From contig JAJDUK010000005.1 in NCBI GenBank assembly GCA_022826665.1, forward strand, positions 55,262 to 119,261: a stretch of 64,000 nucleotides of DNA, given 5' to 3'. Position numbers and translations under genes: made by a program. The notes under the pieces were generated by a model. It was given only the letters and a program-made list of their open reading frames with translations, searched no databases and was not told the DNA's origin. This document shows, piece after piece, positions 19,581 to 36,769 of this stretch; within the stretch, counting starts at the first letter, position 1; each line of letters begins with the position of its first letter. Source of the stretch: Alphaproteobacteria bacterium (GTDB taxonomy: Bacteria; Pseudomonadota; Alphaproteobacteria; UBA828).

Positions 19581-20753
19581 ATGTGGAACAGACACTTGGC
19601 CAAGCAGCTCACCGCCGCCTTCGTGCGCACCGTCAACACCCCGGGCAAGTACCACGACGAGCATGGGTTGATCCTGCGTGTCGTCCTCTCCCAGCGCAAG
19701 CAATGGATCTCGAAATCCTGGGTCCAGCGCCTCGTCATCCACGGCCGGCGCCGCGACCTCGGTCTCGGGGCCTATCCGCTCGTCGGGTTGGCCGATGCGC
19801 GCGAACGCGCCCTGGACAACCGCCGCATTGCCCGTTCCGGCGGAGACCCGCGCGCACGGCCCGCCGCCGCCGCGCCAACCTTCGAGGAGGCCTTCGAGGC
19901 CGTCCTCTCCGTGAAGGCCCCGGCATGGAAGAGCCCGACTTCGCAGGTTTCATGGCGCCAGACGATGCGCCTCTACGTCTTCCCGCACATCGGAAGCCGG
20001 GGCGTCGACACCCTCACCACCAGCGACATGCTCCTGGTGCTCACGCCGCTGTGGAACGATAAGCCGCCCACCGCCAAGCGGGTGCTGCAACGCATGAGTT
20101 CGGTGTGCCGGTGGGCGATCGCCGAGGGGTACCGCAACGACGACCCGACGGCGAACGTGACGAGCGTCCTGCCCAGGCACAAGGGTGAGGAGAGACACCA
20201 TGAGGCGATGCCGTACGTGCAGGTCGGCGCGTTTCTTGTACGCCTGCGAGACGCGGCGGTTCCGCTACCGCGACGGCTGGCACTGGAGTTTCTCACCCTG
20301 ACCGCGGCGCGCACGAGCGAAGTGCGGCTGATGACCTGGGACGAGGTGGACACGGACGCCCGGACATGGACGGTGCCCGCGGCGCGGATGAAGATGATGC
20401 GGGAGCATCGGGTGCCGCTCGCCGAGCGCGCGGTGGCAATTCTCGATGAAGCGCGCGGGCTTCCCCGCCACGGCTCCCGGTGGGTGTTTCCGGGCACCGG
20501 CGGCGCGGAGTTGAGTCAGATGGCGCTGCTGCGCACCATGCGCAGGCTGGACGAGGAAGCGGCCACGCCGCACGGGATGCGCTCGGCGTTTCGTGATTGG
20601 TGTGGCGAGCAGTCCGACGCACCGCACGCGGTGATCGAGGCCGCCCTTGCGCATGTGGTGCGCAACAAGGCCGAGGCCGCCTACGCGCGGTCGGACCTGT
20701 TCGAGCGGCGCCGAGTGTTGATGGAGCAATGGGCGGCGTACCTCTGTCCATGA
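19581..20753 (+). CDS. int: tyrosine-type site-specific integrase (P4/CP4-57 family)
   Basis: ATG at 19581 inside ORF 19362..20753. Catalytic region TAARTSEVRLMTWDE, HGMRSAFRDW (H-x-x-R) and C-terminal Tyr region. Confidence 0.85.
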   Translation: MWNRHLAKQLTAAFVRTVNTPGKYHDEHGLILRVVLSQRKQWISKSWVQRLVIHGRRRDLGLGAYPLVGLADARERALDNRRIARSGGDPRARPAAAAPTFEEAFEAVLSVKAPAWKSPTSQVSWRQTMRLYVFPHIGSRGVDTLTTSDMLLVLTPLWNDKPPTAKRVLQRMSSVCRWAIAEGYRNDDPTANVTSVLPRHKGEERHHEAMPYVQVGAFLVRLRDAAVPLPRRLALEFLTLTAARTSEVRLMTWDEVDTDARTWTVPAARMKMMREHRVPLAERAVAILDEARGLPRHGSRWVFPGTGGAELSQMALLRTMRRLDEEAATPHGMRSAFRDWCGEQSDAPHAVIEAALAHVVRNKAEAAYARSDLFERRRVLMEQWAAYLCP

Positions 20754-21877: not shown

Positions 21878-22271
21878 CGCGGTTCCTCTTCCGGCTTCTT
21901 CTGCTGAACGAATCGATGCCCCTGTAGCCGATACCAATAGCAGCGCCGCTTCCGCCGGCCCATGTCTCGTTGCCGGTATCGGCCCGGCCTTCCGCGATCC
22001 GCATCTTCAGAACATGAGACGGCCGAAACGTCACGACGCGGCGCGCCGGGATCGGCGCCGGCTCCCCGGTCTTCGGGTTGCGGCCCTCCCGTGCCCGTTT
22101 GTGGCGAACCCTGAAACTGCCGAACCCGGAGATCGTCACCGCCCCCCCCGCCGACAGCCGTTCGGCGCACCCCACGACCGCCATGTCCACGCGCGCCGCC
22201 GCAGCGCGGCGCGGCAGGCCGGTCTCGCGGTGGACGGCGTTCGCCAGATCGGCGCGCGTCACTGTCGCCAT
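21861..22271 (-). CDS. HU/IHF family DNA-binding protein (unusually long C-terminal tail)
   Basis: TRADLANAVHRETGL...GGAVTISGFGSFRVRHKRAREGRNPKTGEPAPIPARRVVTFRPS is the HU/IHF arm signature. About 40 extra C-terminal residues. Confidence 0.65.
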   Translation of the reverse strand: MATVTRADLANAVHRETGLPRRAAAARVDMAVVGCAERLSAGGAVTISGFGSFRVRHKRAREGRNPKTGEPAPIPARRVVTFRPSHVLKMRIAEGRADTGNETWAGGSGAAIGIGYRGIDSFSRRSRKRNRDDRIR

Positions 22272-22447
22272 GGCAGAACAGCACTCCGGATTTCGGTCAG
22301 CGTAGCCCCGCCACAGCTTCGGTCAAATCTCAAGACTGCTCACTTGCGAACCAGGCAACTGCGTGCAGCCCATGTCATTCGCCGGCCGGCGCGCTTCAAG
22401 GCGGAATGCGCCAGTGCGCCGTTGCGGAGCGCAGCTGACGCCTGCGG

Positions 22448-24052: not shown

Positions 24053-24509
24053 GTCTCGATTGTCCCATCTCGCCCGACAGGCCCATCGACCGGCGCAACC
24101 TAGGGGGAAACCCGGTCGCGCCGCTATCCTCCCAAGTGGGAGGTTTCGTTCGAAAGGGGGGTCAAAAAAACTCGGCCCGAACGATGTTCCTGCGAGATTT
24201 TTCGGTGTGGCGGGGCGGCGACGGCGCGCCGGCATGGCCCAGTGCCAGCGCGGCCAGGGTCAGGTTCTCCAGCACATCGGCCGCCGCCATCGCGAGCGGC
24301 AGAAGATAGAGCGGCGCGGCGCGCCGCCACAGTCGGACCAGCAGGATCGTCAGCAGCCGGTCGTAGGCGGTCCGCCTGCTGTTCCCGACCGGCTGCTGCA
24401 AGAGCGAGATGCTGACCCTGCGCTGGTGGGGGTCGATCTCGAATTCGGCGAGCTCCATCTCGCTGCAGCCTAGACCGGCCCTCGCGCGGACCTGCTGCCA
24501 CCGACGGCG

Positions 24510-24866
24510 GTGGCGCTGTTGGAAGCGCTGCCGCGACGGATGGACAGCCCCTGGGTGTTTCCGGGCAACGACCGCTACGGGCGCTACAGCAGCGGCGGAC
24601 TCGACCATGCCTGGCGGACCGTGCGGGCAGCGGCCGGGCTGGAGCACGTGCGGATGCACGACCTCAGACACAGCTTCGCGTCCACGGCGCTCGCCCTCGG
24701 AGAAAGCCTGCCGATGATCGCCAGGCTCCTAGGCCACAGCCAGATCAAGACGACCGCCCGCTACGCCCACCTTGTGCGGCAATCGGTGAAGACCGCCGCC
24801 GACACAGTCGCGGACAGCCTCGCGGAAGACCTGGGCCCGCCCCCGGTCGCTCCGTCCACCGCCTGA
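24510..24866 (+). pseudogene. 5'-truncated tyrosine recombinase (C-terminal catalytic fragment only)
   Basis: 118-aa ORF with MHDLRHSFAS and GHSQIKTTARYAHL (R-H-R-Y catalytic region). No N-terminal core-binding domain upstream in any frame. Confidence 0.6.
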
Positions 24867-25436
24867 CCGGCGGCGCGCATTGACCGGATTGGTCTCGGGC
24901 CGCGGCATCGGCTGCTTGTCCCGGACGGCCCCGCGTCGGACACGGCTCTACATGTACGCAATACCGTCGCGCGTCAGATTGATGACCTTCTCGATGTTTC
25001 CCTCGTCAAGTTTGGAAAGGCGCGATTCCGGCATCCCCAGGGCGGCCGCCAATTCGCTCCTTCGCACGATTGTTGTTCGGCGCGCATGTTGGGCGCCGAT
25101 CGCCGTAGTAAAGCGTTGATTTGCTTCGATTCCGAGGGGTCAAACTTCGACGCCGAACAACAGTCGGCGGCCATCATTGATGCCAAATTTCCTTCGGCCT
25201 CGCCGCCGGCCGGCAAGGTCAAGGAGGCAGGGCGGCCCAATTCTTCGTCACGCCCGGAAGATGCGCCATGTCCGGTCCCAACGCGTTTGCAAGGCTCCAC
25301 GAAGCCTGAATCAGTGGAATCGAAATCACGCTGACCCCCGACGACATGGACCTGCTATTCGGCGCAAGTCCTTTTGTTCTGGGGTATTTCCTTCTATACA
25401 AACCCTCAGGCGATCTAGTCGCGAAGAGGACGTGTC

Positions 25437-25988
25437 ATGAAGCCAGCAGTGGCCGTTGTCGATTGGTATGGGCCATACACTCTTGAAGAGGCACGAACCG
25501 CCACCCCAGACTTTGGGGATGGCATCTACATGGCCACCGGAGCATGCAAGTATCAGCGCGCCGTACGGCCTCAGTATTTGGGAATAACATCAAGTCTTTC
25601 GTCAAGACTAAACGGAGACCATCATAAGTTGTCACTGGTCACTCGAGAGCAGGAACTATGGCTAGGGGAAATCGCCAGTTATAGACGGCCTGGTAGGAAG
25701 ACAAAAGCTACCGATAGAATGCTTGACTTGGCTGAATGGGCGCACATCTACTTTCTACAGCTACCCCTCAACGAGAAAAAAAGAGCACAACCTCCAGATT
25801 ATCCGATTACGGTATACAATCGGTGGTGGCGCAACGATTATGCAACTCCACATCGCCGACGTCCACATCAACGATGGCCCGACCTCATCGATTTTGTTGA
25901 CTGCGATTACCCGGCGAAAGTTGTCTGGTTTGGACGGCGTCAGGTCATAAGGCCCGTGCTTGACTTCAAGAACTCACATGTAGTTTGA
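25437..25988 (+). CDS. hypothetical protein (183 aa), first gene of low-GC island
   Basis: Clean ORF in the low-GC segment. No recognisable motif. Confidence 0.4.
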   Translation: MKPAVAVVDWYGPYTLEEARTATPDFGDGIYMATGACKYQRAVRPQYLGITSSLSSRLNGDHHKLSLVTREQELWLGEIASYRRPGRKTKATDRMLDLAEWAHIYFLQLPLNEKKRAQPPDYPITVYNRWWRNDYATPHRRRPHQRWPDLIDFVDCDYPAKVVWFGRRQVIRPVLDFKNSHVV

Positions 25989-26073
25989 AGTCCGTGCTAG
26001 GCGCACTCCACCGCCTTCAGCCGCTCTACATGCGTAGAGGAGATGATCACACATCCAGTCCAAGAACTGAGCT

Positions 26074-26583
26074 CTATGTATTCAGTACGTTCATGCCACT
26101 GGCTGTTTCCATGACCAAGGCCACATGCTCGAGAAATTTGCGTTGCGCATTGTCGGCTAAGTCCACGTGAGTTGTGTCATCACCTACCGTCATATCCACC
26201 GATCCAGTTGCGATGTCGACCTCCACCGTGCCGCCGATCGTCGGGTGTTCTTGAAGGGCCTTGCGTATTCGAATGTTAGTATCTTGCGATCGCCCGGATT
26301 TGCGAAATTGACTAAACCTGGGCCGCAACTCGACCGTTTCTCCTACATAACACTTCGTACGCCCTTCACCGTAAAGGTGGAACCTGTATAGACCGGTCTC
26401 ACGCGTAGTCTCTGGAAACGCTGGGTCGCCCTTGTCGTCCCATGTGATGCGACCGATGCGTCGCCATCGTACCTCGACCGAAAATCGTATCGACTCAATT
26501 CCCGTTACCACCATCTCAGTCGCTGTTGTTCCGATCATCGCAGTTGCTCCGTGACCTCCCATCTGTTGATGATGGCACACCAT
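26074..26583 (-). CDS. GIY-YIG-like nuclease candidate
   Basis: GLYRFHLYGEGRTKCYVGETVELRPRFSQF resembles GIY-(x10)-YVG followed by the conserved Arg-x3-F helix of GIY-YIG domains. Last gene of the dcm operon; start may be MIGTT at 26538. Confidence 0.4.
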   Translation of the reverse strand: MVCHHQQMGGHGATAMIGTTATEMVVTGIESIRFSVEVRWRRIGRITWDDKGDPAFPETTRETGLYRFHLYGEGRTKCYVGETVELRPRFSQFRKSGRSQDTNIRIRKALQEHPTIGGTVEVDIATGSVDMTVGDDTTHVDLADNAQRKFLEHVALVMETASGMNVLNT

Positions 26584-26616
26584 ACTTACGCGCCCAGCGC
26601 CAGCTCCAATACGTTC

Positions 26617-27669
26617 TCACCGCTCATCACCTTGGTCATCAAGATAGCGATGAATTGCCCGTGCATGATGCTCTGCGAACTTCGGCGGGAACGCATTTCC
26701 AATCATTTGTGCTGCTGGATATCTCCCCCGGGAAAGGTCGAATCTATAGCTTTTAGGGAAACCCTGAAGCAGAGCTGCTTCTCGCAATGTAATAGCTCTA
26801 TCTTTTTCCGGGTGTAAGAATCGCCCTTTCGAAGGATTAATGCATCCTCCAGTTATAGTCGGTGCTTCCTTCCTCCATTCCATACGACCATACACATCCC
26901 AAAATCCCTCTAACCTCTTGTGACATTCCAGCTGGTCATCAACGGGCAAGTCCGCTCTACTGCCCCCATCCTTGGGTATGCGGCAAATCAATTCGTAAAC
27001 CTTATGCGCTCGCCTCACTTTGTAATTGTGCGCTGGATCATTCGATTTCTCTGGCGCTGGCAACTTTCGTATAGCTTCAGACACTGTTCTGCGCCGTGAG
27101 GGGCAAGCAAATGGAGGCAATCCCTTAAGGCCTCCCAACAAAAGCAAGCGACGTCGCCGCTGCGGTACACCGTACCGTGCGGCATCAAAGACATCCACAC
27201 CAGTACGGTAATCTAGACAATGAAGTTCGCTCCTTAGCCGCTCCAATCTCTCGTCACTCATGAGAGCAGGTACGTTCTCCATCATAATGGCTTTCGGCCG
27301 AAATACCCTAACGAACCGAACAAACTGGAACACCAGCTCGTTTTGTGGATCGTTTGCGTCCCTCGCTCCATTCAGAGTGCGCAAGGTCGAATATCCTTGG
27401 CAAGGAGGGCAACCCGCTATGAGATCCATCTCCCCGGCTCTTATGCCAAGTACTTTCATCAGTTTTCGCGGCTTGATTGTCGTAATGTCACACTGGAACA
27501 TTCGGGTGTTTCGGTGGTTCTTACGATAGGTTGACGCAGCCAAGGGATCGTTATCGATCGCTGCCACCACGTCGAAGCCAGCTCGACGAAGACCGAGCGA
27601 CAGCCCGCCACAACCTGCAAATAGATCTACCGCTCGCCGTTCCGCCTTCTCGTATTGGAACGATCGCAT
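26617..27669 (-). CDS. DNA (cytosine-5)-methyltransferase
   Basis: All C5-MTase motifs in order: FAGCGG (I), GCPPCQGYS (IV), MENV (VI), QRRRR (VIII), IGNAFPP (X). Start codon overlaps the upstream gene stop. Confidence 0.9.
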   Translation of the reverse strand: MRSFQYEKAERRAVDLFAGCGGLSLGLRRAGFDVVAAIDNDPLAASTYRKNHRNTRMFQCDITTIKPRKLMKVLGIRAGEMDLIAGCPPCQGYSTLRTLNGARDANDPQNELVFQFVRFVRVFRPKAIMMENVPALMSDERLERLRSELHCLDYRTGVDVFDAARYGVPQRRRRLLLLGGLKGLPPFACPSRRRTVSEAIRKLPAPEKSNDPAHNYKVRRAHKVYELICRIPKDGGSRADLPVDDQLECHKRLEGFWDVYGRMEWRKEAPTITGGCINPSKGRFLHPEKDRAITLREAALLQGFPKSYRFDLSRGRYPAAQMIGNAFPPKFAEHHARAIHRYLDDQGDER

Positions 27670-29438
27670 TAATCGACCCTTCCCACAAAGTCCAAACCCA
27701 CCCGAGACAGTGAAGCCCCCAGTTTGTGCAGCAGATTCAATGCATACTCGTAGCGCAGCTGACCGACAACTCGCACTTCTTGTTCCACAAAGCTAAGATT
27801 ACCGTTCGCTGATCTCGTCGACCCTATGGTCAACATTCTTGTGCTAGCAGGGTCGAGAGAAAATAGTCCCTTATTCTTGGCGTAAACAAAGCTCAAAACG
27901 GGCTGGGCATTTCTTTGACTGGTAAACAGATATGACCTATTCTCGCGCCCGTCCAGGTTCAAGAACACACAGCGTCCTTCATTTATTTCATCTGGCCTTG
28001 GCACCGCGCGTGTATCTCTGTGCAGCTTTACCGCGATGAACGGCAGCCACTCCCCGAAGCGGTCACGACGTTCAGCTCCGCCTTGACCAGGTACCAAGTC
28101 GCAGGCCGGGCTCAAACACACCCAGTAATCATCGCCACTCTGAAAGACATGTCCAGTAGTTAAGTGACGTCCTCCGGGGGGTCTGCTGCATGCGAGTACG
28201 TTGTGCTCGATCAATGCTGTCGTTTTTTCCGATTGTTCAGTGAGATCAACCTGAAAGCGTCTATTGCACACTTGTTTGCTGTTCTCACCGTTTGAGTTTT
28301 CAAATTGCACCAGTTCATCGGCGAAGTCACTGACACTTGGGATCACCTCATCAATAAGCAGCTCTGCGTGCCATTTCACGCTTTCTGAAATGTATTGAAG
28401 GCGCACGTCACTGCTCGCGTCCAAGAGCCTGCTGTACCAATAGGCAAGTGCACGGCGTCGAGCAAGAACGTGCTCCTGAACAGGAACACCTTGTTCGTCT
28501 ACCTCCGCCCGCAACCGCGACAAAAGCAGCCGAGAAGGCGTTGGATTCCATCCCGAAAGCGCTTGACTCAGTCGTTGCAAGAGATCGTCGTGCTCTCCCT
28601 TACGAGCAAACGCTATGAAAATGGAACCACTCTGAATCCAATAAGGGTCGGATAGAGCCCACGCAAACTCTCCAACATAGTTGCTGTGCAGGCTCTCCGC
28701 CAATGCCCTTTCCCGCATGACAAGCGCGTAGATTAGCAACGTGCGACGATCATCCTCATCCAAGCCGACGTCGACGCAAAGTGCGTGAAATTCCGCAAAG
28801 GGCTGCTCCGCCGCCTCCATCGTGCCAAACACTTGACCAGGCTCTCGACGGTATTCGAGATATGCCTCCGTCCCAATGCTAGCCAAGAGCGCGTCTTCGA
28901 ACCCCTCCCGTTCGAGCTCCGCTTCATCCAACAGACGCTGGGCTGCTTCGGCGCCAGCACCGCCGCGGGTTAGGTCCTGAGATGCCGAGAGAAGACCGAT
29001 GCGTACCTGCTGAAACACTTCATCCAGCTCTAGGGATGTGTAAATGATTACCAAGTTGAAGTGCTGATTGCCGGCGACATTGCGCAAAATTTCGATTGCT
29101 CTTGAGCCGTCTTCTCGCCGAGTCCGGTCTAACTCATAGTCCAGGACTAACAAGTCCGATTGATGCAAATGCCGTGCAACCTCCCTCGCGCCCTCCTCAG
29201 GTACGTTCTGTCCGTCGTGAATATCCAGTAGGAGCGGCGTATCTCTATCCCGAAACTGCCTTATCAGCTCTCGTACCCGATCTGGCGATTCGCGCCATCT
29301 CTTTTCAACACCTTGGTCCGATTCTGGAGCAGCCAATATGTCGCTATACGTCGGATAGTCATCATCTACGATGAGAACCGAACGAATGGGATCAACATAG
29401 GCTTTTCCTATGAACGCATCGTAGGACTCACACATCAC
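27669..29438 (-). CDS. receiver-like (CheY-fold candidate) N-terminal domain protein with large uncharacterised C-terminal domain
   Basis: N-terminus IRSVLIVDDDYP...TPLLLDIHDGQ...DLLVLDYEL...NLVIIYTS resembles beta1 acidic pair, phospho-acceptor Asp and beta4/beta5 of REC domains, but is degenerate. C-terminal 430 aa has no recognisable motif. 11-nt overlap with the upstream GHKL gene. Confidence 0.5.
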   Translation of the reverse strand: MMCESYDAFIGKAYVDPIRSVLIVDDDYPTYSDILAAPESDQGVEKRWRESPDRVRELIRQFRDRDTPLLLDIHDGQNVPEEGAREVARHLHQSDLLVLDYELDRTRREDGSRAIEILRNVAGNQHFNLVIIYTSLELDEVFQQVRIGLLSASQDLTRGGAGAEAAQRLLDEAELEREGFEDALLASIGTEAYLEYRREPGQVFGTMEAAEQPFAEFHALCVDVGLDEDDRRTLLIYALVMRERALAESLHSNYVGEFAWALSDPYWIQSGSIFIAFARKGEHDDLLQRLSQALSGWNPTPSRLLLSRLRAEVDEQGVPVQEHVLARRRALAYWYSRLLDASSDVRLQYISESVKWHAELLIDEVIPSVSDFADELVQFENSNGENSKQVCNRRFQVDLTEQSEKTTALIEHNVLACSRPPGGRHLTTGHVFQSGDDYWVCLSPACDLVPGQGGAERRDRFGEWLPFIAVKLHRDTRAVPRPDEINEGRCVFLNLDGRENRSYLFTSQRNAQPVLSFVYAKNKGLFSLDPASTRMLTIGSTRSANGNLSFVEQEVRVVGQLRYEYALNLLHKLGASLSRVGLDFVGRVD

Positions 29439-32391
29439 CGAACTTTGCTCCCCGAAACGTGATCAGAAAGTTTGCTCCGTCCAAAGGCATCCTCGCCTTG
29501 TTGGCCTCGTACTTTATTCGGTGACCTCCTGCCGACAAATTCGCCCGGCATAGATACAGTCCCACTCCGCGTCCCCCTCGTGCCTTTCGTGTGAAAAACA
29601 AGGTGAAGAGGTTGCTCACATCTTCTTCATCCACTCCGGGACCATTGTCAGAAACAACCACATCATCTTCGATAACGCCAAAAATGATCCGGCGCTTTTT
29701 TACCTCAGTGCTGGCCAGCCAATAGATGCTGTTGTTCACTAAGTTGATGAACACAGGATAAAGCCGGGACTGCTGATCAAATACCTGCAAACGAAGAAAC
29801 TCATCGGTGGCCTCCAACGCAATTTGGTTTCGCGCCAAAATCGGCTTAAAGAAGTCCGAGGTATATCGAAATACGTCTTCACCTGTGATCCATTTCTGAA
29901 TCTTTTGGCCCGCTAATCGGAGAGGTGACAGGAACCGCAGCTGGTCGGTAAGCCCTTCGTATGCAAATTCGATATCCTTCGCGGCTTTGCTTTCCCGGAT
30001 ATCTCCCGGCAAACGACGCAACCCATCAGCGAGAATGTCGTCGAAGGCTTGAAGATCATGTGCGACGATTTCCACCGCTATGCCAAGCTGCGCCAAGCTA
30101 TTCAGCCTGTCCAGCTCCGCGCGCAATTCGCCCACTTCGTCCGCGTCGAACGTCGCCAAATGCAGCAGGTCTACACTTTCCCCCAAGCTCTCGAGCGTTG
30201 TTATATATGGCAGCAATATATCCCGGTTCTCTTTGTCAAACCTCTCCTTCAATTTATCCATCGCGGCGGAAGCTTCCAAATACGGCATCGCTTGCGCGCG
30301 CACTCGATCCAGCAGCGGTTCGGCTTCTCGAGTGAAAGCGTCCATCCTCTCCTTGACCAGTTCTCTGACGCGTTCGTACTCTGCGCGCTGTAATCTCTCC
30401 GCTTCCTTACCCCAATTATCCAATCGCCGTTTGAGTTCTCGGCCTTGTCGGGTCAATTGTTCAAGGAGTAAATCCTCTGGCCTTGCCGGGTCGACACGTT
30501 CGATCTGCTCTTCCAACTTTTCTCGCAACGCGGCGACCGCGGTTCGGAAAGCACGATAGTTCCGTCGATACTCGACATATTGGCTCTCCAAGCGCGCGCT
30601 CAACTTCTTCGGCTTCACCGGTAGTGTGAAGTCAGAGAGGCGCCCTACAAACGCATCGAGGTCTTCCTTTGCTGGTCCAATTTGCCTTTCTCTCGTTATA
30701 TCAAGTGATTCCACATAGCTCTCAATCTCGTGAAGGACCGCCGGTAGCTCTTCCGCAAAGTCTTTCAAATTCGCGCGAAACGCGCGCGCCTGCCTCTTGT
30801 GAAGCTTCTCGCGTTCTTTATTTGCCTTTTGACGACGATTGTCCTCCCTGATGTCCGGTAAGAAGTCTCCGCGAAAACTGGACTCGGAACCAAAGTACAA
30901 CCTAGCGGATCTCTGCAAAACATTCGCAACGATTTCCCGAAACGTTTTTGCGGCATGGTTGTCTAGAAGCCCTTCTCTCCCCGCCTTGTCCTTGAGGTTC
31001 GGATTAGTCTCGCGTCCGATTGAGAGACGCCCGAACATTTGTCTGTGATTCCAGAATTCACGACCGGCACTCTTGCTGCGGCGTGACTCGATTTCGAAAA
31101 AATCGTTATCTGTACGGCCATAGGGAAGAACACGAAGACCGTCTCGAAAAACCATGAAGCCAGAGTACTTGTTCGCGAGATCGCGATAGCGGTTGAAGTC
31201 CGCTTCGGTGTGCGTGCTGTTTATGGCGGTGAATTCCATTGACGCGATATAGAGGCCGAATGGGCCCACCCGGGTGTCCGCGCGGGTCGGAATTGTTAGA
31301 TCGCGCGGTGGCGGAATGACGCATTCGTCCGTCAGGTCTTTTCCGAAAGCTCTAATGGAGCCTGTGAATACGCCGTCTTCTCCCACCCGCCCCACAATGC
31401 GATGCTCCATGTCATCAATTTGCCGTCTGTCGAACTGTCTCTCGGAACCGACAACTAAATCCGCTGTTCCATTTGTCCAGGCGCGTACGGCATACGAAAA
31501 CTGCGGATCGCTGTTCGACAATGCCTTATCCGAGGGATCTACGAAAGGGTCCACAAAACTCGAAAGCGTCTCGAAGAAACGATCACGCGTCGCCTGTTGC
31601 GCAACCTCACTGTAGTTCCGCTCGATCTGTGCCCGTAAATCATAGTTGAGGCCGGATATCAGTAGCGCCGTACCCCTATCCGACGCATCTGTCCACACAG
31701 GCCAAGGCTCAATGTGTTCCGGTTGGAAAGGCAGCTCAAGAATGTTGGCGATAATGTCTTCGGAGCGAGCGACCTGTATTCCACTTTCCTTCAGTCCGTC
31801 AATCTCCGACCAAGCCTCGGATATTCGAGCAGATCGCCCGGGTTCTCTCCCGCCCTTAACATTTTCCGACAGAGTCTTGGCCAGTAGCGGCAATTCTACG
31901 AATAAATCAGCTCTGTCTTTGAAATCCACAAGAGGAATTTGAATGTCAGAAAGATTGAGAAAGGGATTCTCAAACAATCGCCAATCGATCAGCGCCGCGA
32001 TGAAAGGCGAATCTTTTCTCTTGGACACCAGCAGCAACAAGGGACCCAAGTTCGCACACGAAAGGCGCCCGATTCCCTTTTGGCCTTGGCGTGGCCGAGG
32101 CTTCAGGCCGTTGCGATCCGCTCGACTTCTCGGATCTGCAGTGGCCTTCGCCTCAGTGCCCACCACCAGCCAGTGTCGCTGGAATTCCTCCCCGCTCATT
32201 CCATGCCCGTCGTCCACGATCGCCGCGACAGGCTCCGGGTCCTTGAAGAGGTGGAGTTCGACCATTCTCGCGTAGGCGTCATACGCATTCTTCCAGAGCT
32301 CGGATATCGCCGTCGGGCAATCCGCGATCTGCTCCCGACCCAGGTGGTCTACGGTCCGTGCCCGAGTCTGAAATGCGATTCCTTGAACCAT
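29428..32391 (-). CDS. dual Bergerat-fold ATPase: N-terminal MORC/MutL-like GHKL domain plus C-terminal histidine-kinase transmitter (HisKA-like H-box + HATPase_c)
   Basis: N-terminal ELWKNAYDA (ExxxNxxDA), DDGHGM, GQKGIGRLS. C-terminal IVAHDLQAFDD (H-box-like), INLVNNSIYW (N box), SDNGPGV (G1), LFTLFF (F), GGRGVGLYLCR (G2). Confidence 0.65.
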   Translation of the reverse strand: MVQGIAFQTRARTVDHLGREQIADCPTAISELWKNAYDAYARMVELHLFKDPEPVAAIVDDGHGMSGEEFQRHWLVVGTEAKATADPRSRADRNGLKPRPRQGQKGIGRLSCANLGPLLLLVSKRKDSPFIAALIDWRLFENPFLNLSDIQIPLVDFKDRADLFVELPLLAKTLSENVKGGREPGRSARISEAWSEIDGLKESGIQVARSEDIIANILELPFQPEHIEPWPVWTDASDRGTALLISGLNYDLRAQIERNYSEVAQQATRDRFFETLSSFVDPFVDPSDKALSNSDPQFSYAVRAWTNGTADLVVGSERQFDRRQIDDMEHRIVGRVGEDGVFTGSIRAFGKDLTDECVIPPPRDLTIPTRADTRVGPFGLYIASMEFTAINSTHTEADFNRYRDLANKYSGFMVFRDGLRVLPYGRTDNDFFEIESRRSKSAGREFWNHRQMFGRLSIGRETNPNLKDKAGREGLLDNHAAKTFREIVANVLQRSARLYFGSESSFRGDFLPDIREDNRRQKANKEREKLHKRQARAFRANLKDFAEELPAVLHEIESYVESLDITRERQIGPAKEDLDAFVGRLSDFTLPVKPKKLSARLESQYVEYRRNYRAFRTAVAALREKLEEQIERVDPARPEDLLLEQLTRQGRELKRRLDNWGKEAERLQRAEYERVRELVKERMDAFTREAEPLLDRVRAQAMPYLEASAAMDKLKERFDKENRDILLPYITTLESLGESVDLLHLATFDADEVGELRAELDRLNSLAQLGIAVEIVAHDLQAFDDILADGLRRLPGDIRESKAAKDIEFAYEGLTDQLRFLSPLRLAGQKIQKWITGEDVFRYTSDFFKPILARNQIALEATDEFLRLQVFDQQSRLYPVFINLVNNSIYWLASTEVKKRRIIFGVIEDDVVVSDNGPGVDEEDVSNLFTLFFTRKARGGRGVGLYLCRANLSAGGHRIKYEANKARMPLDGANFLITFRGAKFGDV

Positions 32392-32738
32392 GCCCTCGTT
32401 CCGCGCCCGTCGCCGACCCGATCAGACGGCCCGCTCAATGCCGAACAGACTCCGCACCAACAGCCGAATGAGGCCGACGCCACCACATATAGCATATACT
32501 ACTAAGGATGCCCCAATATGGAGGCGAAGACCGCTCACGGTTCGACGAGCCTTGGGTTCGGCTCCCTCGACATCTCCACTGAATTCGCCCCATCCCGCCT
32601 ACGCTCCAGCCTTCCAGCCACAATTTCAGCAGCCTTGATGCCGGCCTTTTGCTTCCTAGCCTGATTCTTGCCCGTAGTGATCCTCCCCGCTCAAATCCTG
32701 CACTCCCGTGTCCGGTTAGTGCAATATGGCTTCCGCCG
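32392..32738. promoter_or_regulatory. divergent intergenic region between GHKL operon and vsr (inferred promoters)
   Basis: 347-bp non-coding gap between divergently transcribed genes. No motif resolved. Confidence 0.3.
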
Positions 32739-33203
32739 ATGACCGACACAGTCGATCGCAACACCCGTTCTCGCATGATGGCGAGTGTCTCCAGCAAGGA
32801 CACGGCGCCGGAACTCGCTCTGCGTCGGGCACTTCATGCGCTGGGCCTGAGATACCGACTCCATTGTCGGAATCTCCCCGGCACTCCCGATCTGACCTTT
32901 CCTCGCTTCCGAGCCGTCTGTTTCGTACACGGCTGCTTTTGGCACCGCCACCCCCGCTGTCACCGTACGACAGACCCCACCACACGCCCGGAATTCTGGC
33001 ACGCCAAGTTTCAGGCCAACGTGGAGCGTGACCAACGCGCACGACAGCAGCTTCTGGCCGCTGGATGGCGAGTGGCAATCATTTGGGAATGTGCGCTGCG
33101 CAAGGATCGAGCGGAACGTACATCCCACGTGGTGGCCCAATGGCTACACGGCGACGACCGCGAATTCGAAACGCCTCTCTTCGAAACCCGACACCAACAA
33201 TGA
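32739..33203 (+). CDS. vsr: very short patch repair endonuclease
   Basis: ATG at 32739 by frame arithmetic. TPELALRRALHALGLRYRL, FVHGCFWHRH and WRVAIIWECAL are canonical Vsr blocks. Confidence 0.85.
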   Translation: MTDTVDRNTRSRMMASVSSKDTAPELALRRALHALGLRYRLHCRNLPGTPDLTFPRFRAVCFVHGCFWHRHPRCHRTTDPTTRPEFWHAKFQANVERDQRARQQLLAAGWRVAIIWECALRKDRAERTSHVVAQWLHGDDREFETPLFETRHQQ

Positions 33204-33372
33204 TCTCCCTACCGTATTTTGAACCCGACACCGAGGGCATTTTTCCTCCGATTCTGCTGGCCCTCCACGCATCGCGCTGATCGCCTCGCATGCCCACTTG
33301 TTGCCGACGTCGACACCAACCGGGTGATTCGAATTGCCTTACTGCACTTGGAAGTTGTCCTGATACTTGAGT

Positions 33373-33560
33373 TCATCGCGCGACGAAACCGGACCATTCT
33401 TCCATCAGCACCCGCCGCCGCTCGAACAGATCCGTCCGGCGATAAGCGGCCTCCACCCGATCGGAATTCACGTGAGCCAAGGCGAGCTCGCAGACTTCGC
33501 GGGGTACGTCGGAGCACTCCGCCGCCCAGTCCCGAAACTGGGACTGGAACCCGTGCAGCC
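33373..33560 (-). pseudogene. P4-type integrase C-terminal fragment (about 60 aa)
   Basis: LHGFQSQFRDWAAECSDVPREVCELALAHVNSDRVEAAYRRTDLFERRRVLMEEWSGF is near-collinear with the C-terminus of the intact integrase at 20590-20750. No upstream part is present. Confidence 0.6.
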
Positions 33561-33566
33561 CGCACG

Positions 33567-34181
33567 TTAGCTCTGCCGACCGAGGTGGCCGAAGTCGATT
33601 TCGTACGGCACACCGGTGAGGTTGGTGAGTGTGACGATGACGCGGAACGGGCTGTCGACGTAGGGACGGGTCAGCCAGCCGGCCGGCAGCGGACCGCCCT
33701 GGAAGGCTGCGGCCGCTTTCGTCGCCTGGCCGATCGCCCTGTCGTTGAACAGCGACTTCAGCGGTTGGCCAGCGGCGATGTCGTTGGTCTCGACGAAGCC
33801 GGCGATGTCCAGTTCCTGCACCCAGGTCTTGTAGAACGGATTGCGGTCCCACTCGACCTCAGACGAGGCGGGCGAGATGTGCGGGAAACCGAAGGCAAGC
33901 GCGCGGGCAAGGATGGCGGCGCACACGCCGCCGCCGGATGCGCCGGCCGCGACACGGATCTTCACGTCGTGGTCGGGCACGTCATCGTCGTTCGTCTTCG
34001 CCACGTACCAAGCGTCCAGCGCCTCGATGAGCTTGTCCAGGAATCCCGCCGTGTAGGCGCCGGCCGAGACCGTGCCGCCCAACACCAGAGCGACCTCGAA
34101 GGTGCCGTCGGGCAGGCTCCGCGTGACGTTGCTTTCCAGGACCCGCAGGATCTCTTTGTTTGTCGGCGCTGGCATCGTCAT
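33567..34181 (-). pseudogene. patatin-like phospholipase, 3'-truncated (lacks catalytic Asp block)
   Basis: Start MTMPAPTNK. Has VLGGTVSAGAY (oxyanion loop), GASGGG (GxSxG) and TNLTGVPYEIDF (TDLxTG block). The ORF ends about 10 aa later, before any DGG/DGA motif, right at the integrase fragment. Confidence 0.55.
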
Positions 34182-34370
34182 TCCCCTTTCGCTGCGTACC
34201 ACCAACTCTACATGGGTACAGGGCTTAACATCAGAGATCACTATCGGATGGAGGCGACTGCCTAGCTTCGCACCCTCGGGCTCGTCACGCTTGGCTGCGA
34301 ATGAGCGATCCACTAACATTCCAACTGAACCAGCCCCCGAGAACAGACGATAAGGCTGAGGTAACCAGTT

Positions 34371-35132
34371 ATGTTGAAGTCTGTCGGTAAGCCACGCCTC
34401 AGGAACGCCCTCAAGAAACTGAGGCGAATTCCATTTAATCGCGAGGATCCCTACAATCTGGCAACGGCACCTGTGGAGATGTTGGAGTTCCTCGCAATGA
34501 TTTCTGGGTTAAAACCAGTTGTACTTATTGGACGGGGATTTGATGATCAGAATTGGATTAGGGGGGTTCAAGATCTCGCTGAGGATATGCACTTGCATGT
34601 GATCGAAGGTCCCAAGTGGGAAGCGATTCCGGAATACAGCGGCTTGCCAAATTGGTTCGCTTTGATAGACCAGAAGAAGCTCTCAGAGAATTCGGTTGTG
34701 TATATTAGCAAATCAAAGTCAATCTCTAAATGTGTTAGGAGAATTGTGGATGCTAGAAGTATTACTATCGAGGAAGAGTCAGCTATCCTTGGTTATCCAA
34801 CATGTTGTGTAAAAGACCATTATTACAAAGCTGAAAGGATGAACAGAGGCTTTAACCTTATGCTGGAGCGGCTCTCTAGTGGTGACAAGTCAGAAATGAT
34901 GCGACTTGTTAGGGAGGACGTACCCATGTCGCCTGAGACTGATGAGGAGATAGAATGCATGAGAGAGGCGACACGCACAGTCGTTGCTCCCTACACGAGC
35001 ATTGTGATGTGTCCTTCCTGCGAAGATGATCAGGATAGTCCAGCTCGTATAGTCTCAAAGAATTACAAGATTCTTGCTGATAGTATCGATCCCCGTCTAG
35101 CGTTAGATATAAACCTTCATCAAAAAGTGTAA
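34371..35132 (+). CDS. hypothetical Cys-rich protein, very AT-rich (foreign)
   Basis: 253-aa ORF with GC about 45% in a 65-70% GC genome. Contains GYPTCCVKDHY and CPSCEDD Cys clusters. No family recognised. Confidence 0.45.
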   Translation: MLKSVGKPRLRNALKKLRRIPFNREDPYNLATAPVEMLEFLAMISGLKPVVLIGRGFDDQNWIRGVQDLAEDMHLHVIEGPKWEAIPEYSGLPNWFALIDQKKLSENSVVYISKSKSISKCVRRIVDARSITIEEESAILGYPTCCVKDHYYKAERMNRGFNLMLERLSSGDKSEMMRLVREDVPMSPETDEEIECMREATRTVVAPYTSIVMCPSCEDDQDSPARIVSKNYKILADSIDPRLALDINLHQKV

Positions 35133-35340
35133 GCTGCGCGTAATCGCGACCTACCCTTCTAGATTGTGGGACATAGTACCGGCAATTTCAAACGCCAGCT
35201 TTTCACGAAACAGTTTCAATCGCGTGGATTTCTTCCAGTCTCGCCATGCTTTCCCAGGGCCCGGTCCGCCCCATATACCCCTAGCCCAGCCGGGCCCCCA
35301 CAGTTAGCACGATGCGCCGACCATCACGGACCTCGCCTGC

Positions 35341-35772
35341 TCAGCAGGCTCGTCCAACCGAACCCCGAAGACGCTCGATGTCCTCGCGAAAGGGATCGCG
35401 GCTTTCCGCATCGAAGTCCTCGGGATGCGAATCCATCCAGGCGATCGTGCGCTCGTAATATTCGATCGCCCGTTCGGTTTCGCCGCGCGCTTCGCAGACC
35501 ATCGCCTTACGCATGAGCCAATCGTGCACCTCGGGATAGCGGGTCCTCAGCTGCTCGCACACGGCGTCCGCTTCGTCGAGGCGGCCTTCATCGATCAGGT
35601 TGACGACGCTGTTCGAGAGCCGGTCCAGGTCGGTCTCGGCCCAGTGGTATCCATGTTGCGATGCCGCCGGCGCGGTAGGCACATAGGCGGCGCGGTCGCG
35701 GTCCCAGCAGCAGCGCTTGTACTTCCTGCCGCTGCCACAAGGGCAAGGTTGGTTCCTGCCGATCTTCACCAT
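35341..35772 (-). CDS. SEC-C metal-binding motif protein (YchJ-like)
   Basis: Start [22 protein letters not shown] (SEC-C motif) placed by frame arithmetic inside ORF 35341..36303. Confidence 0.6.
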
Positions 35773-35953
35773 TAACGCCTCGTCGCCGGCATTTCCGGCT
35801 CTCGGACCCCCGATCACATGTAGCCCGCTCGCCGGTCGCCAGCAACATTCCCGACCTTCCGCGGCGCGCCGGCAGGAGGCAGCGGCCGGCCTCTTCCGGG
35901 CGAATTCGGGGACCGGAAAGTGGCCCTCGCGCCACCGCCGGGGAGGCCGACCC

Positions 35954-36769
35954 ATGTCCAGCCGCATCGCCGACATTCTCGTGCCGCCGCGATGCCGGGA
36001 GATGATCCGCGCCGGCGCGCTCATCGCCATCAACACCAGCGGTGGCAAGGATTCACAGGCGATGACCATCCTGCTGTCGCGGATCGTTCCCCGCGACCAG
36101 ATCGTGGCGGTCCACGCCCCGCTCGGCGAGGTCGAGTGGCCGGGTACGATCGAGCATATCGAGGCAACGCTACCCGCCGGCGTGCCGCTCGTCATGGCGC
36201 CGGTTTCGTCCGGCAAGTCGCTGCTCGACCACGTCGAGGAGCGTGGCATGTTTCCAGGAGCCCGCCAAAGATGGTGTACGGCGGCCCTTAAACGGGGACC
36301 CATCGAGCGCGAACTGCGCCGCTATCTGAAGGCTCATCCCCGCTTCGGCGGGCGCCTCGTCAACGCCATGGGCATGCGCGCGGAGGAAAGCCCGGCACGT
36401 GCCAGGAAGGCGCCGTGGAGGCGCAACGACCGGATGAGCGTCGCGGGCCGCGAGGTCTTCGACTGGCTGCCGGTCTTCGACCTCTCCACGGACGACGTCT
36501 TCCGCGTCATCCACGACGCCGGCCAGTCGCCGCACTGGGCCTACGCCGCCGGCATGTCGCGGCTGAGTTGCAGCTTCTGCATCCTGGCGTCCCGCGCCGA
36601 CCTTCGCCGCGCGGCCGAGCTCCGCCCGGCGCTCTACCGCACCTATGTGGAGCTTGAGCGGCGCATCGATCACACGCTCTCGCCGTCGGGCATCCCCCTG
36701 CCGGAACTGACCGGCGTCTCCCCGGCAACCGCCCGCCACGACGACCCGACCGGCCTGAACAGCATCTGA
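35954..36769 (+). CDS. phosphoadenosine phosphosulfate reductase family protein (PP-loop ATPase)
   Basis: ATG at 35954. Has INTSGGKDS (SGGxDS PP-loop). Confidence 0.7.

What the first reader, a model, noticed from the sequence alone, without database searches (positions are those of the whole stretch)
24510..35140. Compositional island with decayed integrases and a deletion junction fusing a truncated patatin gene to an integrase 3' fragment
Seen in sequence:
- GC content drops abruptly at about 25437 and recovers at about 35140.
- A 5'-truncated tyrosine recombinase (24510-24866) sits at the left edge.
- Inside, a 60-aa C-terminal fragment of a P4-type integrase (33373-33560, minus) abuts the 3'-truncated patatin-like ORF (33567-34181, minus) with only a 6-bp gap.

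Inference: Both ORFs appear cut at the same point, which indicates a deletion removing the patatin C-terminus, the integrase N-terminus and probably an att site. The island therefore looks like a stack of at least two independently acquired elements, now immobilised.
Basis: partly seen in the sequence, partly recalled or inferred. Interest (0 to 1): 0.55.

Follow-up and report, generated by a model that had tools for sequence, protein, structure and literature searches.

The report
Patchwork cargo slot of mobile element
The low-GC stretch is the accessory-gene slot of a larger integrated mobile element, holding one intact methylase-linked gene block of restriction-modification type borrowed from conjugative elements plus dead pieces of an integrase, a lipase and a recombinase gene; it is a well-documented but ordinary example of how such slots turn over.

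Summary
GC falls from 0.69 to about 0.52 between roughly 25.0 and 35.3 kb. A dead tyrosine-recombinase remnant lies at the left edge. A 3' integrase fragment is fused to a 5' patatin fragment at 33563-33565.

The interpretation needs revising:
- The left remnant (24343-24866, not 24510) is the last 43% of the second of two tandem recombinase genes. These genes belong to the backbone of a large, multi-copy mobile-element family, not to the island.
- The low-GC DNA fills that family's variable slot, between the recombinases and a conserved PAPS-reductase-family gene (homology resumes sharply at 35859).
- In 16 relatives the same slot is 0.7-9.2 kb long and often low in GC. It carries unrelated defence genes (type II/IIG R-M, CBASS, ApeA and others).

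Here the slot is a mosaic of at least six pieces:
- An intact 7.9-kb block: orf183, orf169, Dcm, Response_reg_2 protein, paraMORC/HEF_HK protein, Vsr. Three conjugative-element contigs carry it too.
- A 315-bp integrase piece.
- A 644-bp patatin piece.
- An intact unknown gene, orf253.
- A SEC-C/TPR gene.

No att-like repeats were found. An intact P4-type integrase sits at 19.58 kb, so "immobilised" is unproven.

Verdict: a new member of a known kind, of modest interest.

The parts
24343..24866 (+). Dead 3' remnant (residues about 229-400 of 400) of recB, the second of two tandem tyrosine-recombinase genes of the backbone element. It carries a frameshift at 24427-24431, stops near 24361 and at 24471, and a changed box-I Arg.
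   Evidence: tblastn of full-length recB/recA from L004, L007 and L029. blastn homology to 9 loci starts at 24366. Pfam Phage_integrase E 1.7e-14.
24867..25358 (.). Segment S0: short spacer, GC 0.61, no intact gene. The minus strand at about 24950-25140 reads like the tail of a small helix-turn-helix protein.
   Evidence: Translations and fine GC profile. A 95-nt similarity to L041. No gene is called here in L001.
25359..33245 (.). Segment S1: intact 7.9-kb low-GC block (GC 0.536). It holds orf183, orf169, Dcm, the RR-like protein, the HK-like/paraMORC protein and Vsr. The same block, with nearly the same ends, sits as low-GC cargo between the T4 coupling-protein and relaxase genes of three conjugative-element contigs.
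   Evidence: blastn 76-83% identity to L165, L166 and L167, with left ends at 25359-25371 and right ends at 33148-33240. Block GC 0.53 against backbone 0.62-0.73 in those contigs.
25437..25988 (+). orf183: conserved 183-aa protein of unknown function that travels with the block.
   Evidence: 78-80% aa identity in L165, L166 and L167. No Pfam, NCBIfam, PHROG or PADLOC match.
26074..26583 (-). orf169: unknown protein, an optional member of the block (present in L166 only).
   Evidence: 68% aa identity in L166, absent from L165 and L167. No family match.
26617..27669 (-). C5 cytosine DNA methyltransferase (Dcm type), intact.
   Evidence: Pfam DNA_methylase E 1.4e-60. PADLOC MTase_II E 2.3e-83. 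The PCQ and ENV motifs are visible in the translation.
27669..29438 (-). Response_reg_2 (receiver-like) protein, 589 aa, intact. Its C-terminal beta-rich domain gives only weak MazF/CcdB/Kid-like fold matches.
29428..32391 (-). HK-like/paraMORC protein, 987 aa, intact: HATPase_c_3 (N-terminus) + HEF_HK + HATPase_c (C-terminus).
   Evidence: Pfam E 5.3e-16, 2.3e-5 and 1.2e-13. The N-terminus resembles the BbrUII/HgiDII restriction enzyme family (NCBIfam E 1.6e-16; PADLOC REase_II E 1.1e-8). Full-length homologues in 80 metagenome loci.
32649..33203 (+). Vsr very-short-patch repair endonuclease, intact, divergent from the HK-like gene.
   Evidence: Pfam Vsr E 1.6e-28. PADLOC Vsr E 4.5e-33. 79-89% identity in L165-L167.
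33373..33563 (-). Segment S2 core: last about 60 codons of a P4-type integrase gene (box II His/Arg and the catalytic Tyr region). The N-terminal ~400 residues are missing. The piece as a whole spans about 33250-33563.
   Evidence: BLASTP 60% identity to residues 404-461 of the window's intact integrase. 85% nt identity to L169 over 33563-33375. 90-92% aa identity to many integrase C-terminal ORFs.
33563..33565 (.). Junction of the patatin-derived and integrase-derived DNA: blunt, with at most 1-2 nt of possible microhomology or filler.
   Evidence: Nucleotide alignments to L083 (patatin side ends at 33565) and L169 (integrase side starts at 33563).
33565..34208 (-). Segment S3: 5' piece of a patatin-like phospholipase gene (coding 34181-33570, 204 codons). 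It keeps the GxSxG serine motif and lacks the catalytic Asp region. GC 0.66.
   Evidence: Pfam Patatin E 3.9e-5, below cutoff. 103 homologues. The alignment shows homologues continuing beyond this point. L083 encodes about 570 aa including 'SVDGG'.
34371..35132 (+). Segment S4 (34209-35320): orf253, an intact 253-aa protein of an unnamed family, in the lowest-GC DNA of the window (0.486).
   Evidence: phmmer finds 197 cluster representatives at E<=1e-3, many aligned over residues 4-248. No Pfam, NCBIfam, PHROG or PADLOC match. Composition.
35341..35772 (-). Segment S5 (35321-35858): SEC-C motif + TPR protein, 143 aa. It is an accessory gene shared with only 4 of 80 related loci.
   Evidence: Pfam SEC-C E 5.2e-9. 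tblastn hits in L003, L035, L063 and L076 only. Homology to L003/L035 starts at 35334/35321.
35859..36769 (+). Start of the conserved backbone: a ~95-nt conserved leader (35860-35953) and the PAPS-reductase-family gene (35954-36769). Dozens of related loci begin their homology here.
   Evidence: blastn start points at 35859-35867. Alignments. 204 relatives in genome contigs. Pfam PAPS_reduct and phrog_424.
19581..20753 (+). Context: an intact P4-type integrase at the left border of the mobile DNA, followed by an AlpA-type gene, an HU gene and a DUF924-HATPase_c_2 gene up to 24052. DNA to the left of 19374 carries housekeeping genes.
   Evidence: Pfam Arm-DNA-bind_3, Phage_int_M and Phage_integrase. 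Gene calls in L001. Housekeeping genes at 1-19374.

Best explanation
The low-GC stretch (24867-35858) is the variable accessory-gene slot of a large integrated mobile element.

The element family (shown):
- Two tandem ~400-aa tyrosine-recombinase genes (recA, recB) lie at one end.
- A variable slot follows.
- Then comes a conserved backbone that opens with a ~95-nt leader and a PAPS-reductase-family gene, followed by DUF2201/VWA, RadC and a strawberry-notch-type helicase.
- In relatives the slot holds unrelated genes, many matching defence models, often low in GC.

This copy (shown):
- The recombinase module has been destroyed. Only a frameshifted 3' stump of recB is left.
- The stump is joined on its left to a different block that starts with an intact P4-type integrase.
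- The slot has been filled piecemeal with DNA from other mobile elements.

Contents of the slot (shown):
- (i) An intact 7.9-kb block encoding a C5 methyltransferase, a receiver-like protein, a paraMORC/histidine-kinase-like GHKL ATPase and Vsr. It is also carried as low-GC cargo by conjugative elements.
- (ii) Two dead gene pieces, a 315-bp 3' end of a P4-type integrase gene and a 644-bp 5' end of a patatin gene, joined bluntly at 33563-33565.
- (iii) Two intact small genes, orf253 and SEC-C/TPR.

Inferred, not shown:
- The pieces arrived and were trimmed by illegitimate recombination, and possibly by homologous exchange between co-resident copies of the element. They did not arrive by site-specific integration.
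- The intact block works as a restriction-modification-like defence unit. Dcm would mark self DNA. Vsr would repair the T:G mismatches that 5-methylcytosine deamination causes. The HK-like/RR-like pair would supply the sensing and restriction or toxic activity.
For: Backbone and slot:
- 204 relatives of the PAPS-reductase gene, up to 6 copies on one contig, across several phyla.
- Homology of dozens of loci begins at 35859-35867.
- Tandem recombinases lie upstream on the same strand in 16 loci, with 0.74-9.2 kb between them and the backbone. Slot GC is often 0.53-0.62 against a backbone of 0.70.
- recA and recB are complete Arm-DNA-bind_3 + SAM-like + catalytic integrases.
- Slot ORFs of relatives match type IIG and type II (XhoI) R-M, CBASS cyclase + HORMA + TRIP13 + SAVED-TIR, ApeA, PD-T4-4, PDC-S58 and transposases.
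- The closest relatives L003 and L035 share the SEC-C gene and backbone but carry other low-GC cargo, including SIR2-like, radical-SAM and AAA_16 ATPase-domain proteins.

recB stump.

The block:
- It occurs in L165, L166 and L167 with coincident ends, between TraG/VirD4-type and TraI/TrwC genes.
- All four core genes are full length.
- HK-like and RR-like genes are adjacent in 78 of 80 metagenome loci. Dcm is present in 76 of 80 and Vsr in 33 of 80.
- The family and its R-M association are described in PMC8011034.

Junction: and its presence in several assemblies.

No flanking direct or inverted repeats.
Against: - The mechanism of cargo exchange was not observed. The sharply conserved right boundary could equally mark a site-specific recombination site.
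- Only 16 of 80 related loci show the recombinases within 10 kb. The architecture is inferred from that subset.
- Whether the DNA from 19.4 kb to beyond 56 kb is one element or two adjacent ones is unknown. The right end was not found in the window.
- The defence role of the Dcm/RR-like/HK-like/Vsr block is a prediction from gene association. PADLOC has no model for it and no nuclease domain was identified.
Confidence: 0.75

Rival explanations
1. Two or more self-contained genomic islands, each brought in by its own integrase, stacked at one chromosomal site. A single later deletion between a full patatin gene and a full P4-type integrase gene removed the att site and froze the stack.
For: - Two integrase-type remnants and several compositional segments exist.
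- The patatin/integrase junction is a clean two-sided truncation.
- In L166 a P4-type integrase N-terminal fragment and an AlpA gene lie beyond the Vsr end of the same block, in the same orientation. This hints that the block once sat beside such an integrase.
Against: - The left remnant belongs to the backbone recombinase pair, not to the island.
- The integrase piece is only about 315 bp long and has a second breakpoint near 33245.
- The patatin piece also ends abruptly on its 5' side, at 34208.
- There is no tRNA or att repeat at either edge.
- The block's relatives sit in conjugative elements without an adjacent integrase.
Confidence: 0.15
2. The slot is an active cassette-exchange site. 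The conserved ~95-nt boundary at 35860-35953, and a counterpart near the recombinase genes, would be recombination sites used by the tandem recombinases to swap cargo, in the manner of an integron.
For: - The boundary is very sharp and conserved across phyla.
- Cargo in the same position is highly diverse.
- The element is multi-copy within genomes.
Against: - No repeated site was found at the ends of the cargo, or of its sub-segments, in this window.
- The sub-segment junctions fall inside genes (patatin, integrase, recB). That is typical of illegitimate events, not site-specific ones.
- The conserved leader may simply be the promoter or 5' UTR of the first backbone gene. RNAalifold gives no covariation signal either way.
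Confidence: 0.1
3. The junctions are artefacts of metagenome assembly: chimeric joins of reads from different genomes.
For: The window comes from a metagenome-assembled sequence, and mosaic low-GC DNA inside high-GC DNA is a classic place for misassembly.
Against: - The same order and the same patatin/integrase junction appear in the ENA scaffold and the Logan assembly of one sample. They also appear in an assembly from another sample that differs by 1.5%.
- The recB stump is likewise present in L001 and L002.
Confidence: 0.02

Closest known systems
Defence and accessory-gene hotspots of integrated mobile elements. Defence systems are reported as pervasive cargo of chromosomally integrated ICEs and IMEs (PMC10201445, abstract only, seen). 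Hotspots in P2/P4-type prophages and SXT-type ICEs are cited from my own knowledge.
   Same: A fixed position between conserved backbone genes holds different, compositionally foreign, mostly defence-type genes in different copies of the element.
   Different: The backbone here (tandem DUF4102-type recombinases, then a PAPS-reductase-family gene, DUF2201, RadC and a strawberry-notch-type helicase) was not found described in the papers searched. This copy has lost its recombinase module, and its slot contains gene debris.
Response_reg_2 / HEF_HK two-component-like pair associated with C5 methyltransferases, Vsr and paraMORC ATPases (Bellieny-Rabelo et al. 2021, PMC8011034).
   Same: - The same Pfam domains occur in adjacent genes, with Dcm and Vsr as neighbours.
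- The receiver Asp residues ('IVDDDYP', 'LVLDY') and a His followed by an acidic residue ('VAHDL') are present in the translations.
   Different: - Gene order is HK, RR, Dcm with a divergent Vsr, shared with a minority of loci such as L089 and L095. The common order is Dcm, HK, RR, with Vsr, where present, on either side of the core.
- The function is untested anywhere, to my knowledge.
GInts: genomic islands defined by the ginABCD operon (three tyrosine recombinases plus a small protein) at the 5' end, followed by cargo (PMC5385486).
   Same: Several recombinase genes lie in tandem at one end of the element, directly followed by a variable cargo region of a few kb to tens of kb.
   Different: - Relatives here mostly show two recombinases, not three.
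- No ginD-like gene was looked for.
- A long conserved backbone follows the cargo.
- In the window itself the module is dead.
Classical tRNA-linked genomic islands with a P4-type integrase and flanking direct repeats.
   Same: P4-type integrase genes (one intact at 19.58 kb, one 60-codon fragment inside), an AlpA-type gene, foreign composition and mosaic decay.
   Different: - No tRNA lies at either edge.
- The only tRNA (Arg, 16858-16934) points its 3' end away and has no repeated 3' half.
- No direct repeats were found.

Membership tests
Response_reg_2/HEF_HK R-M-associated system (PMC8011034) | Adjacent genes encoding a Response_reg_2 protein and a HEF_HK protein | tested here: met
   PF19192 E 4.5e-22. 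PF19191 E 2.3e-5, 25.2 bits against a cutoff of 24.1. The two genes overlap by 11 nt.
Response_reg_2/HEF_HK R-M-associated system (PMC8011034) | GHKL domains on the HK-like protein: HATPase_c_3 (paraMORC-type) plus a C-terminal HATPase_c | tested here: met
   PF13589 E 5.3e-16 at residues 27-130. PF02518 E 1.2e-13 at residues 874-965.
Response_reg_2/HEF_HK R-M-associated system (PMC8011034) | A neighbouring C5 cytosine methyltransferase, often with Vsr | tested here: met
   Dcm lies directly downstream and Vsr is divergent upstream. The association holds in 76 of 80 and 33 of 80 related loci respectively.
Response_reg_2/HEF_HK R-M-associated system (PMC8011034) | Phosphotransfer or restriction activity | not testable with these tools
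   [not shown]
P4-type (DUF4102) tyrosine integrase, for the fragment at 33373-33563 | Complete protein with an arm-binding N-terminus and a catalytic domain holding Arg I, Lys, His, Arg II, His/Trp and Tyr | tested here: not met
   Only residues equivalent to 404-461 of 463 remain. No further integrase similarity was found upstream, even at E up to 10. It is a gene fragment, not a member protein.
Tandem backbone recombinase recB, for the remnant at 24343-24866 | An intact reading frame of about 400 aa with the catalytic residues | tested here: not met
   Residues 229-400 only, with one frameshift, two stops and Arg I changed to Cys.
Patatin-like phospholipase | Ser-Asp catalytic dyad: GxSxG plus a DG[AG] motif | tested here: not met
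   GASGG is present. The region holding 'SVDGG' in L083 is absent because the gene ends at 33565. The Pfam score of 24.4 is below the cutoff of 27.7.
Classical integrase-bounded genomic island | Flanking direct repeats (att) and insertion next to a tRNA or other target gene | tested here: not met
   The longest shared words between the edges are 10-11 nt, and the longer imperfect matches look like chance. No tRNA lies at the edges.
Classical integrase-bounded genomic island | Composition that departs from the host genome | tested here: met
   z = -3.6 to -5.1 for GC, and tetranucleotide r of 0.61 and -0.10.
GInt (ginABCD) islands | An operon of three tyrosine recombinases plus a small fourth gene at the 5' end | tested here: not met
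   Relatives show two adjacent recombinase genes (three hits only in L043). The window keeps only a stump. ginD was not searched for.
Cargo/defence hotspot of an integrated mobile element | The same flanking backbone genes with different intervening genes in different copies | tested here: met
   16 loci with recB and the backbone, slots of 0.74-9.2 kb and diverse defence families. L003 and L035 share SEC-C and the backbone but carry different cargo.

The most novel reading that the evidence does not exclude
The window may expose an undescribed family of integrative elements. The family is highly multi-copy (4-6 copies per genome) and spans phyla, occurring in uncultured Alphaproteobacteria, Binatia, Thermodesulfobacteriota and Gammaproteobacteria; several bins have sponge-type names. 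Its slot between two tandem recombinases and a sharply conserved 95-nt boundary would be a dedicated, actively exchanging defence-gene site. One of its cargoes would be a still uncharacterised methylase-linked two-component/paraMORC system whose receiver-like protein ends in a MazF/CcdB-like toxin fold.
Probability: 0.3. Interest if true: 0.55.

Novelty: new member of a known kind. Interest (0 to 1): 0.3.

Why it matters
As a single locus it adds little. Mosaic, decaying islands with dead integrases are common.

Its value is as a worked example. Comparison with relatives turns an apparent "island with its own integrase" into the cargo slot of a bigger element. It also shows that such slots are refilled with fragments taken from other mobile elements.

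Two by-products may be worth more than the finding itself:
- A widespread multi-copy element family with a defence-gene hotspot in uncultured, partly sponge-associated bacteria.
- A fresh, intact example of the untested Dcm / Response_reg_2 / HEF_HK-paraMORC / Vsr system. It moves as a discrete 7-8 kb block between element backbones, which makes it a natural candidate for experimental testing as a defence system.

Tried and rejected
- **att-like repeats.** Only chance-level matches of 8-11 nt exact, or imperfect matches up to 25 nt, turned up.
- **A recurrent integrase breakpoint.** The closest database hits to the 60-codon integrase fragment were all short ORFs (66-119 aa), which looked like a shared breakpoint. 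I rejected this. Their N-terminal cut points differ. The hit lengths also appear to be capped at about 1.75 times the query length (119 for a 68-aa query, 349 for a 204-aa query).
- **L140 and L141.** These loci seemed to carry the same C-terminal integrase fragment next to a Dcm-HK-RR block. L140 is an internal deletion of the L141 integrase. The L141 fragment is a decayed piece of another integrase. This is not evidence for a site-specific process.
- **Structured RNA in the conserved leader at 35860-35953.** There is no covariation support.
- **Rfam scan of the window.** Only the tRNA was found.
- **Family searches for orf183, orf169 and orf253.** Pfam, NCBIfam, PHROGs and PADLOC gave nothing.
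- **An intact patatin-integrase arrangement in relatives.** None was found. The best patatin homologue (L083) lies on a contig with IS elements and no integrase.
- **Literature on this backbone.** A search for the gene combination found nothing relevant.

Full report
**1. Checking the observation**

*Composition.*
- Sliding-window composition confirms a strong island. Outside it, 1-kb windows average GC 0.686 (sd 0.037).
- From 25001 to 32000, and again in the 34001-35000 window, values are 0.50-0.55, z = -3.6 to -5.1.
- The fall is graded over about 24950-25350 and the recovery over about 35150-35500.
- The island is not uniform. 33400-34200 is back at 0.64-0.70, and 34250-35250 is the lowest part of the window (0.39-0.49).
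- Tetranucleotide usage agrees. Correlation with the rest of the window is 0.61 for 25359-33245 and -0.10 for 34209-35320, against 0.97-0.99 for the flanking DNA.

*Genes in the region.*
- The ORF at 24510-24866 matches the catalytic domain of tyrosine recombinases.
- The last 60 codons of the minus-strand ORF ending at 33373 are 60% identical to residues 404-461 of an intact P4-type integrase elsewhere in the window.
- The minus-strand ORF 34181-33570 is the N-terminal part of a patatin-like protein.

**2. The left-edge recombinase belongs to the backbone**

- I used the first conserved gene to the right of the island (PAPS-reductase family, 35954-36769) to fetch related loci. It has 204 relatives in the species-representative genome collection.
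- It is often multi-copy: six loci on contig CBDDOM010000002 and four each on OZ220712, OZ244869 and OZ241976.
- The hosts are uncultured Alphaproteobacteria, Binatia, Thermodesulfobacteriota and Gammaproteobacteria. That is the signature of a mobile element.
- Nucleotide homology of dozens of these loci to the window begins sharply at 35859-35867 and runs rightwards for at least 10.8 kb. It covers DUF2201/VWA, RadC and a strawberry-notch-type helicase.
- In 16 of the loci, one or (usually) two ~400-aa tyrosine-recombinase genes lie upstream on the same strand. They are complete Arm-DNA-bind_3 + SAM-like + catalytic integrases.
- tblastn with these full-length proteins shows what the window retains: residues 229-256 (24343-24426, one frame) and 259-400 (24432-24863, another frame) of the second recombinase, recB.
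- The remnant has stops near 24361 and at 24471, the latter replacing a conserved Lys codon. The box-I Arg is changed to Cys.
- Nine loci start their nucleotide homology at exactly 24366.
- The remnant is thus a 5'-truncated, frameshifted stump of a backbone gene. It is not the integrase of the low-GC DNA.

**3. The low-GC DNA fills a variable slot**

- In the 16 loci the distance from the last recombinase to the backbone is 0.74-9.2 kb. Slot GC is often 0.53-0.62 against about 0.70 for the backbone.
- Sixty-three ORFs from those slots match a wide range of families: type IIG and type II (XhoI) restriction-modification, CBASS (cyclase, HORMA, TRIP13, SAVED-TIR), ApeA, PD-T4-4, PDC-S58, HU and transposases.
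- The closest relatives (L003, L035, L063) share the SEC-C gene and backbone with the window at 84-92% identity. Upstream they carry other low-GC genes, including SIR2-like, radical-SAM and AAA_16 ATPase-domain proteins.
- This is a cargo hotspot, largely of defence-type genes. That is a known kind of arrangement in integrated mobile elements (PMC10201445).

**4. Anatomy of the slot in this window**

Comparison with other contigs splits the slot into at least six pieces.

| Piece | Coordinates | Content |
|---|---|---|
| S0 | 24867-25358 | Short spacer with a helix-turn-helix-like remnant |
| S1 | 25359-33245 | Intact 7.9-kb block |
| S2 | about 33250-33563 | Integrase 3' piece |
| S3 | 33565-34208 | Patatin 5' piece |
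| S4 | 34209-35320 | orf253 |
| S5 | 35321-35858 | SEC-C/TPR gene |

*S1.*
- It encodes orf183, orf169, a Dcm-type methyltransferase, a Response_reg_2 protein, a HATPase_c_3 + HEF_HK + HATPase_c protein, and Vsr.
- The same block, at 76-83% nucleotide identity and with nearly the same ends, lies in three other metagenome contigs. There it sits between T4 coupling-protein and relaxase genes of related conjugative elements.
- In those contigs too it is low-GC cargo (0.53 against 0.62-0.73), and it is bordered by IS debris.
- No terminal repeats were found at its ends.

*S2.* The integrase piece has a second breakpoint, relative to the block's relatives, near 33245.

*S3.* The patatin piece is 85% identical to contig L083 over exactly this span.

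*S4.* orf253 is intact and belongs to an unnamed family of about 197 clusters.

*S5.* The SEC-C/TPR gene is shared with only four related loci.

**5. The junction**

- Patatin-derived DNA matches L083 through '...CAGAGCTA[A/C]CG' and diverges after 33565. The TAA stop corresponds to a Tyr codon in L083.
- Integrase-derived DNA matches L169 from 33563 to the stop codon.
- The join is therefore blunt, with at most one unassigned base. It lies inside both genes and in different frames.
- L083 shows what is missing from the patatin gene: about 365 further codons, including 'FLSVDGGTFNNEP', the Asp half of the catalytic dyad.
- The junction is present in the ENA scaffold and the Logan assembly of one sample (L001, L002) and in an assembly from a second sample that differs by 1.5% (L084). 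It is real and has persisted.
- It is best read as an illegitimate-recombination scar.
- Whether it arose by one deletion between two once-intact neighbouring genes cannot be shown. No relative with that arrangement was found, and both pieces are short and broken at their other ends as well.

**6. What the cargo probably does**

- The adjacent HK-like and RR-like genes, with a C5 methyltransferase and often Vsr nearby, form the system predicted by Bellieny-Rabelo et al. (PMC8011034).
- In 80 metagenome loci carrying a full-length homologue of the HK-like protein, the RR-like gene is adjacent in 78. Dcm is present in 76 and Vsr in 33.
- All four genes here are full length. The diagnostic residues are visible in the translations:
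  - receiver Asp residues;
  - a His followed by an acidic residue in HEF_HK;
  - the GHKL boxes;
  - the PCQ and ENV motifs of Dcm.
- The N-terminus of the HK-like protein resembles the GHKL part of BbrUII/HgiDII-type restriction enzymes.
- I infer a restriction-modification-like unit. This is inference from association, not a tested function.

**7. Wider context**

- DNA to the left of 19374 carries housekeeping genes.
- The mobile DNA begins with an intact P4-type integrase at 19581-20753, followed by an AlpA-type gene, an HU gene and a DUF924-HATPase_c_2 gene. The recB stump comes next.
- The only tRNA (Arg, 16858-16934) has its 3' end pointing away and has no repeated half-site.
- The recombinase module of the backbone element was therefore replaced or deleted on its left side.
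- Whether the composite can still move using the P4-type integrase is unknown. No matching repeat was found to the right within the window.

**8. Verdict**

It misassigns the left recombinase, and it misses that the "island" is the cargo slot of a larger element family.
- The locus is a new member of a known kind.
- Interest is modest for the finding itself and somewhat higher for the element family and for the untested methylase-linked system it carries.

Noticed in passing
window 35860-35953; the same position in L003-L076: A ~95-nt sequence directly upstream of the PAPS-reductase-family gene is conserved across at least 30 loci from several phyla. It marks the exact point where the variable cargo ends. 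RNAalifold finds 15 pairs but almost no covariation. It could be a promoter or operator, a 5' UTR, or a recombination boundary.
   Followed up: partly
L019, L021, L023, L027, L029, L033 (one contig); L038/L046/L055/L069; L040/L042/L075/L079; L052/L058/L059/L073: The backbone element is present in 4-6 copies per genome in several uncultured bacteria of different phyla. Some bins have sponge-type names (Spongia_Bin9, RHO and COS bins). I found no description of this backbone in the papers searched.
   Followed up: partly
[not shown]
   Followed up: partly
window 34371-35132: orf253 is an intact member of an unnamed family of ~250-aa proteins with Cys-rich motifs. There are 197 cluster representatives at E<=1e-3. 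It matches nothing in Pfam, NCBIfam, PHROGs or PADLOC, and it sits in the lowest-GC DNA of the window.
   Followed up: partly
window 19375-24342: An intact P4-type integrase (19581-20753) with AlpA-type, HU and DUF924-HATPase_c_2 genes starts directly after an aminotransferase gene, with no tRNA at the border. The nearby tRNA-Arg (16858-16934) faces the wrong way to be its target. The attachment site of this block is unknown.
   Followed up: partly
window 24950-25140, minus strand: An open frame without a clear start reads '...RRTTIVRRSELAAALGMPESRLSKLDEGNIEKVINLTRDGIAYM*', which looks like the tail of a small helix-turn-helix protein. A 95-nt stretch (25068-25162) is 77% identical to L041 3913-4007.
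   Followed up: no
L141 549-2256; L140 7650-8340; L166 3681-3978: Other loci carrying the Dcm/HK-like/RR-like block also have broken P4-type integrases beside it. L141 has a full integrase followed by a decayed C-terminal piece of another. L140 has an internally deleted copy. L166 has an N-terminal fragment with AlpA. This suggests the block often travels near such integrases, but no common breakpoint was found.
   Followed up: partly
L083 331-2021; proteins P0003, P0004, P0015, P0022, P0024: Several of the closest patatin homologues from other metagenomes also look frameshifted or truncated. L083 needs one frameshift repair to give about 570 aa. This patatin lineage may be decaying in several places. 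Part of the effect may come from the hit-length limit noted in the next item.
   Followed up: no
tool behaviour: the search for homologous proteins returned no hit longer than about 1.75 times the query (119 aa for a 68-aa query, 349 aa for a 204-aa query). Searching with a gene fragment therefore returns mainly other fragments, and this must not be read as biology.
   Followed up: yes
L004 4123-4563 and L007 4291-4716 (both minus strand): In two relatives the gene immediately upstream of recA reads like a PIN-domain (VapC-type) toxin ('M.YL.DTNV...'), next to ordinary chromosomal genes. It may mark the element's end or its target. This is by eye only and was not tested against Pfam.
   Followed up: no
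window 46323-47234, 51462-55946, 56566-57747, 59147-61909, 62117-63469: Further right the mobile DNA encodes RadC, a strawberry-notch-type helicase (AAA_34 + Helicase_C_4), a Tle1-like phospholipase-domain protein, a Macro + NADAR protein and a DUF4326 protein. No conjugation genes and no right end were seen within the window.
   Followed up: no
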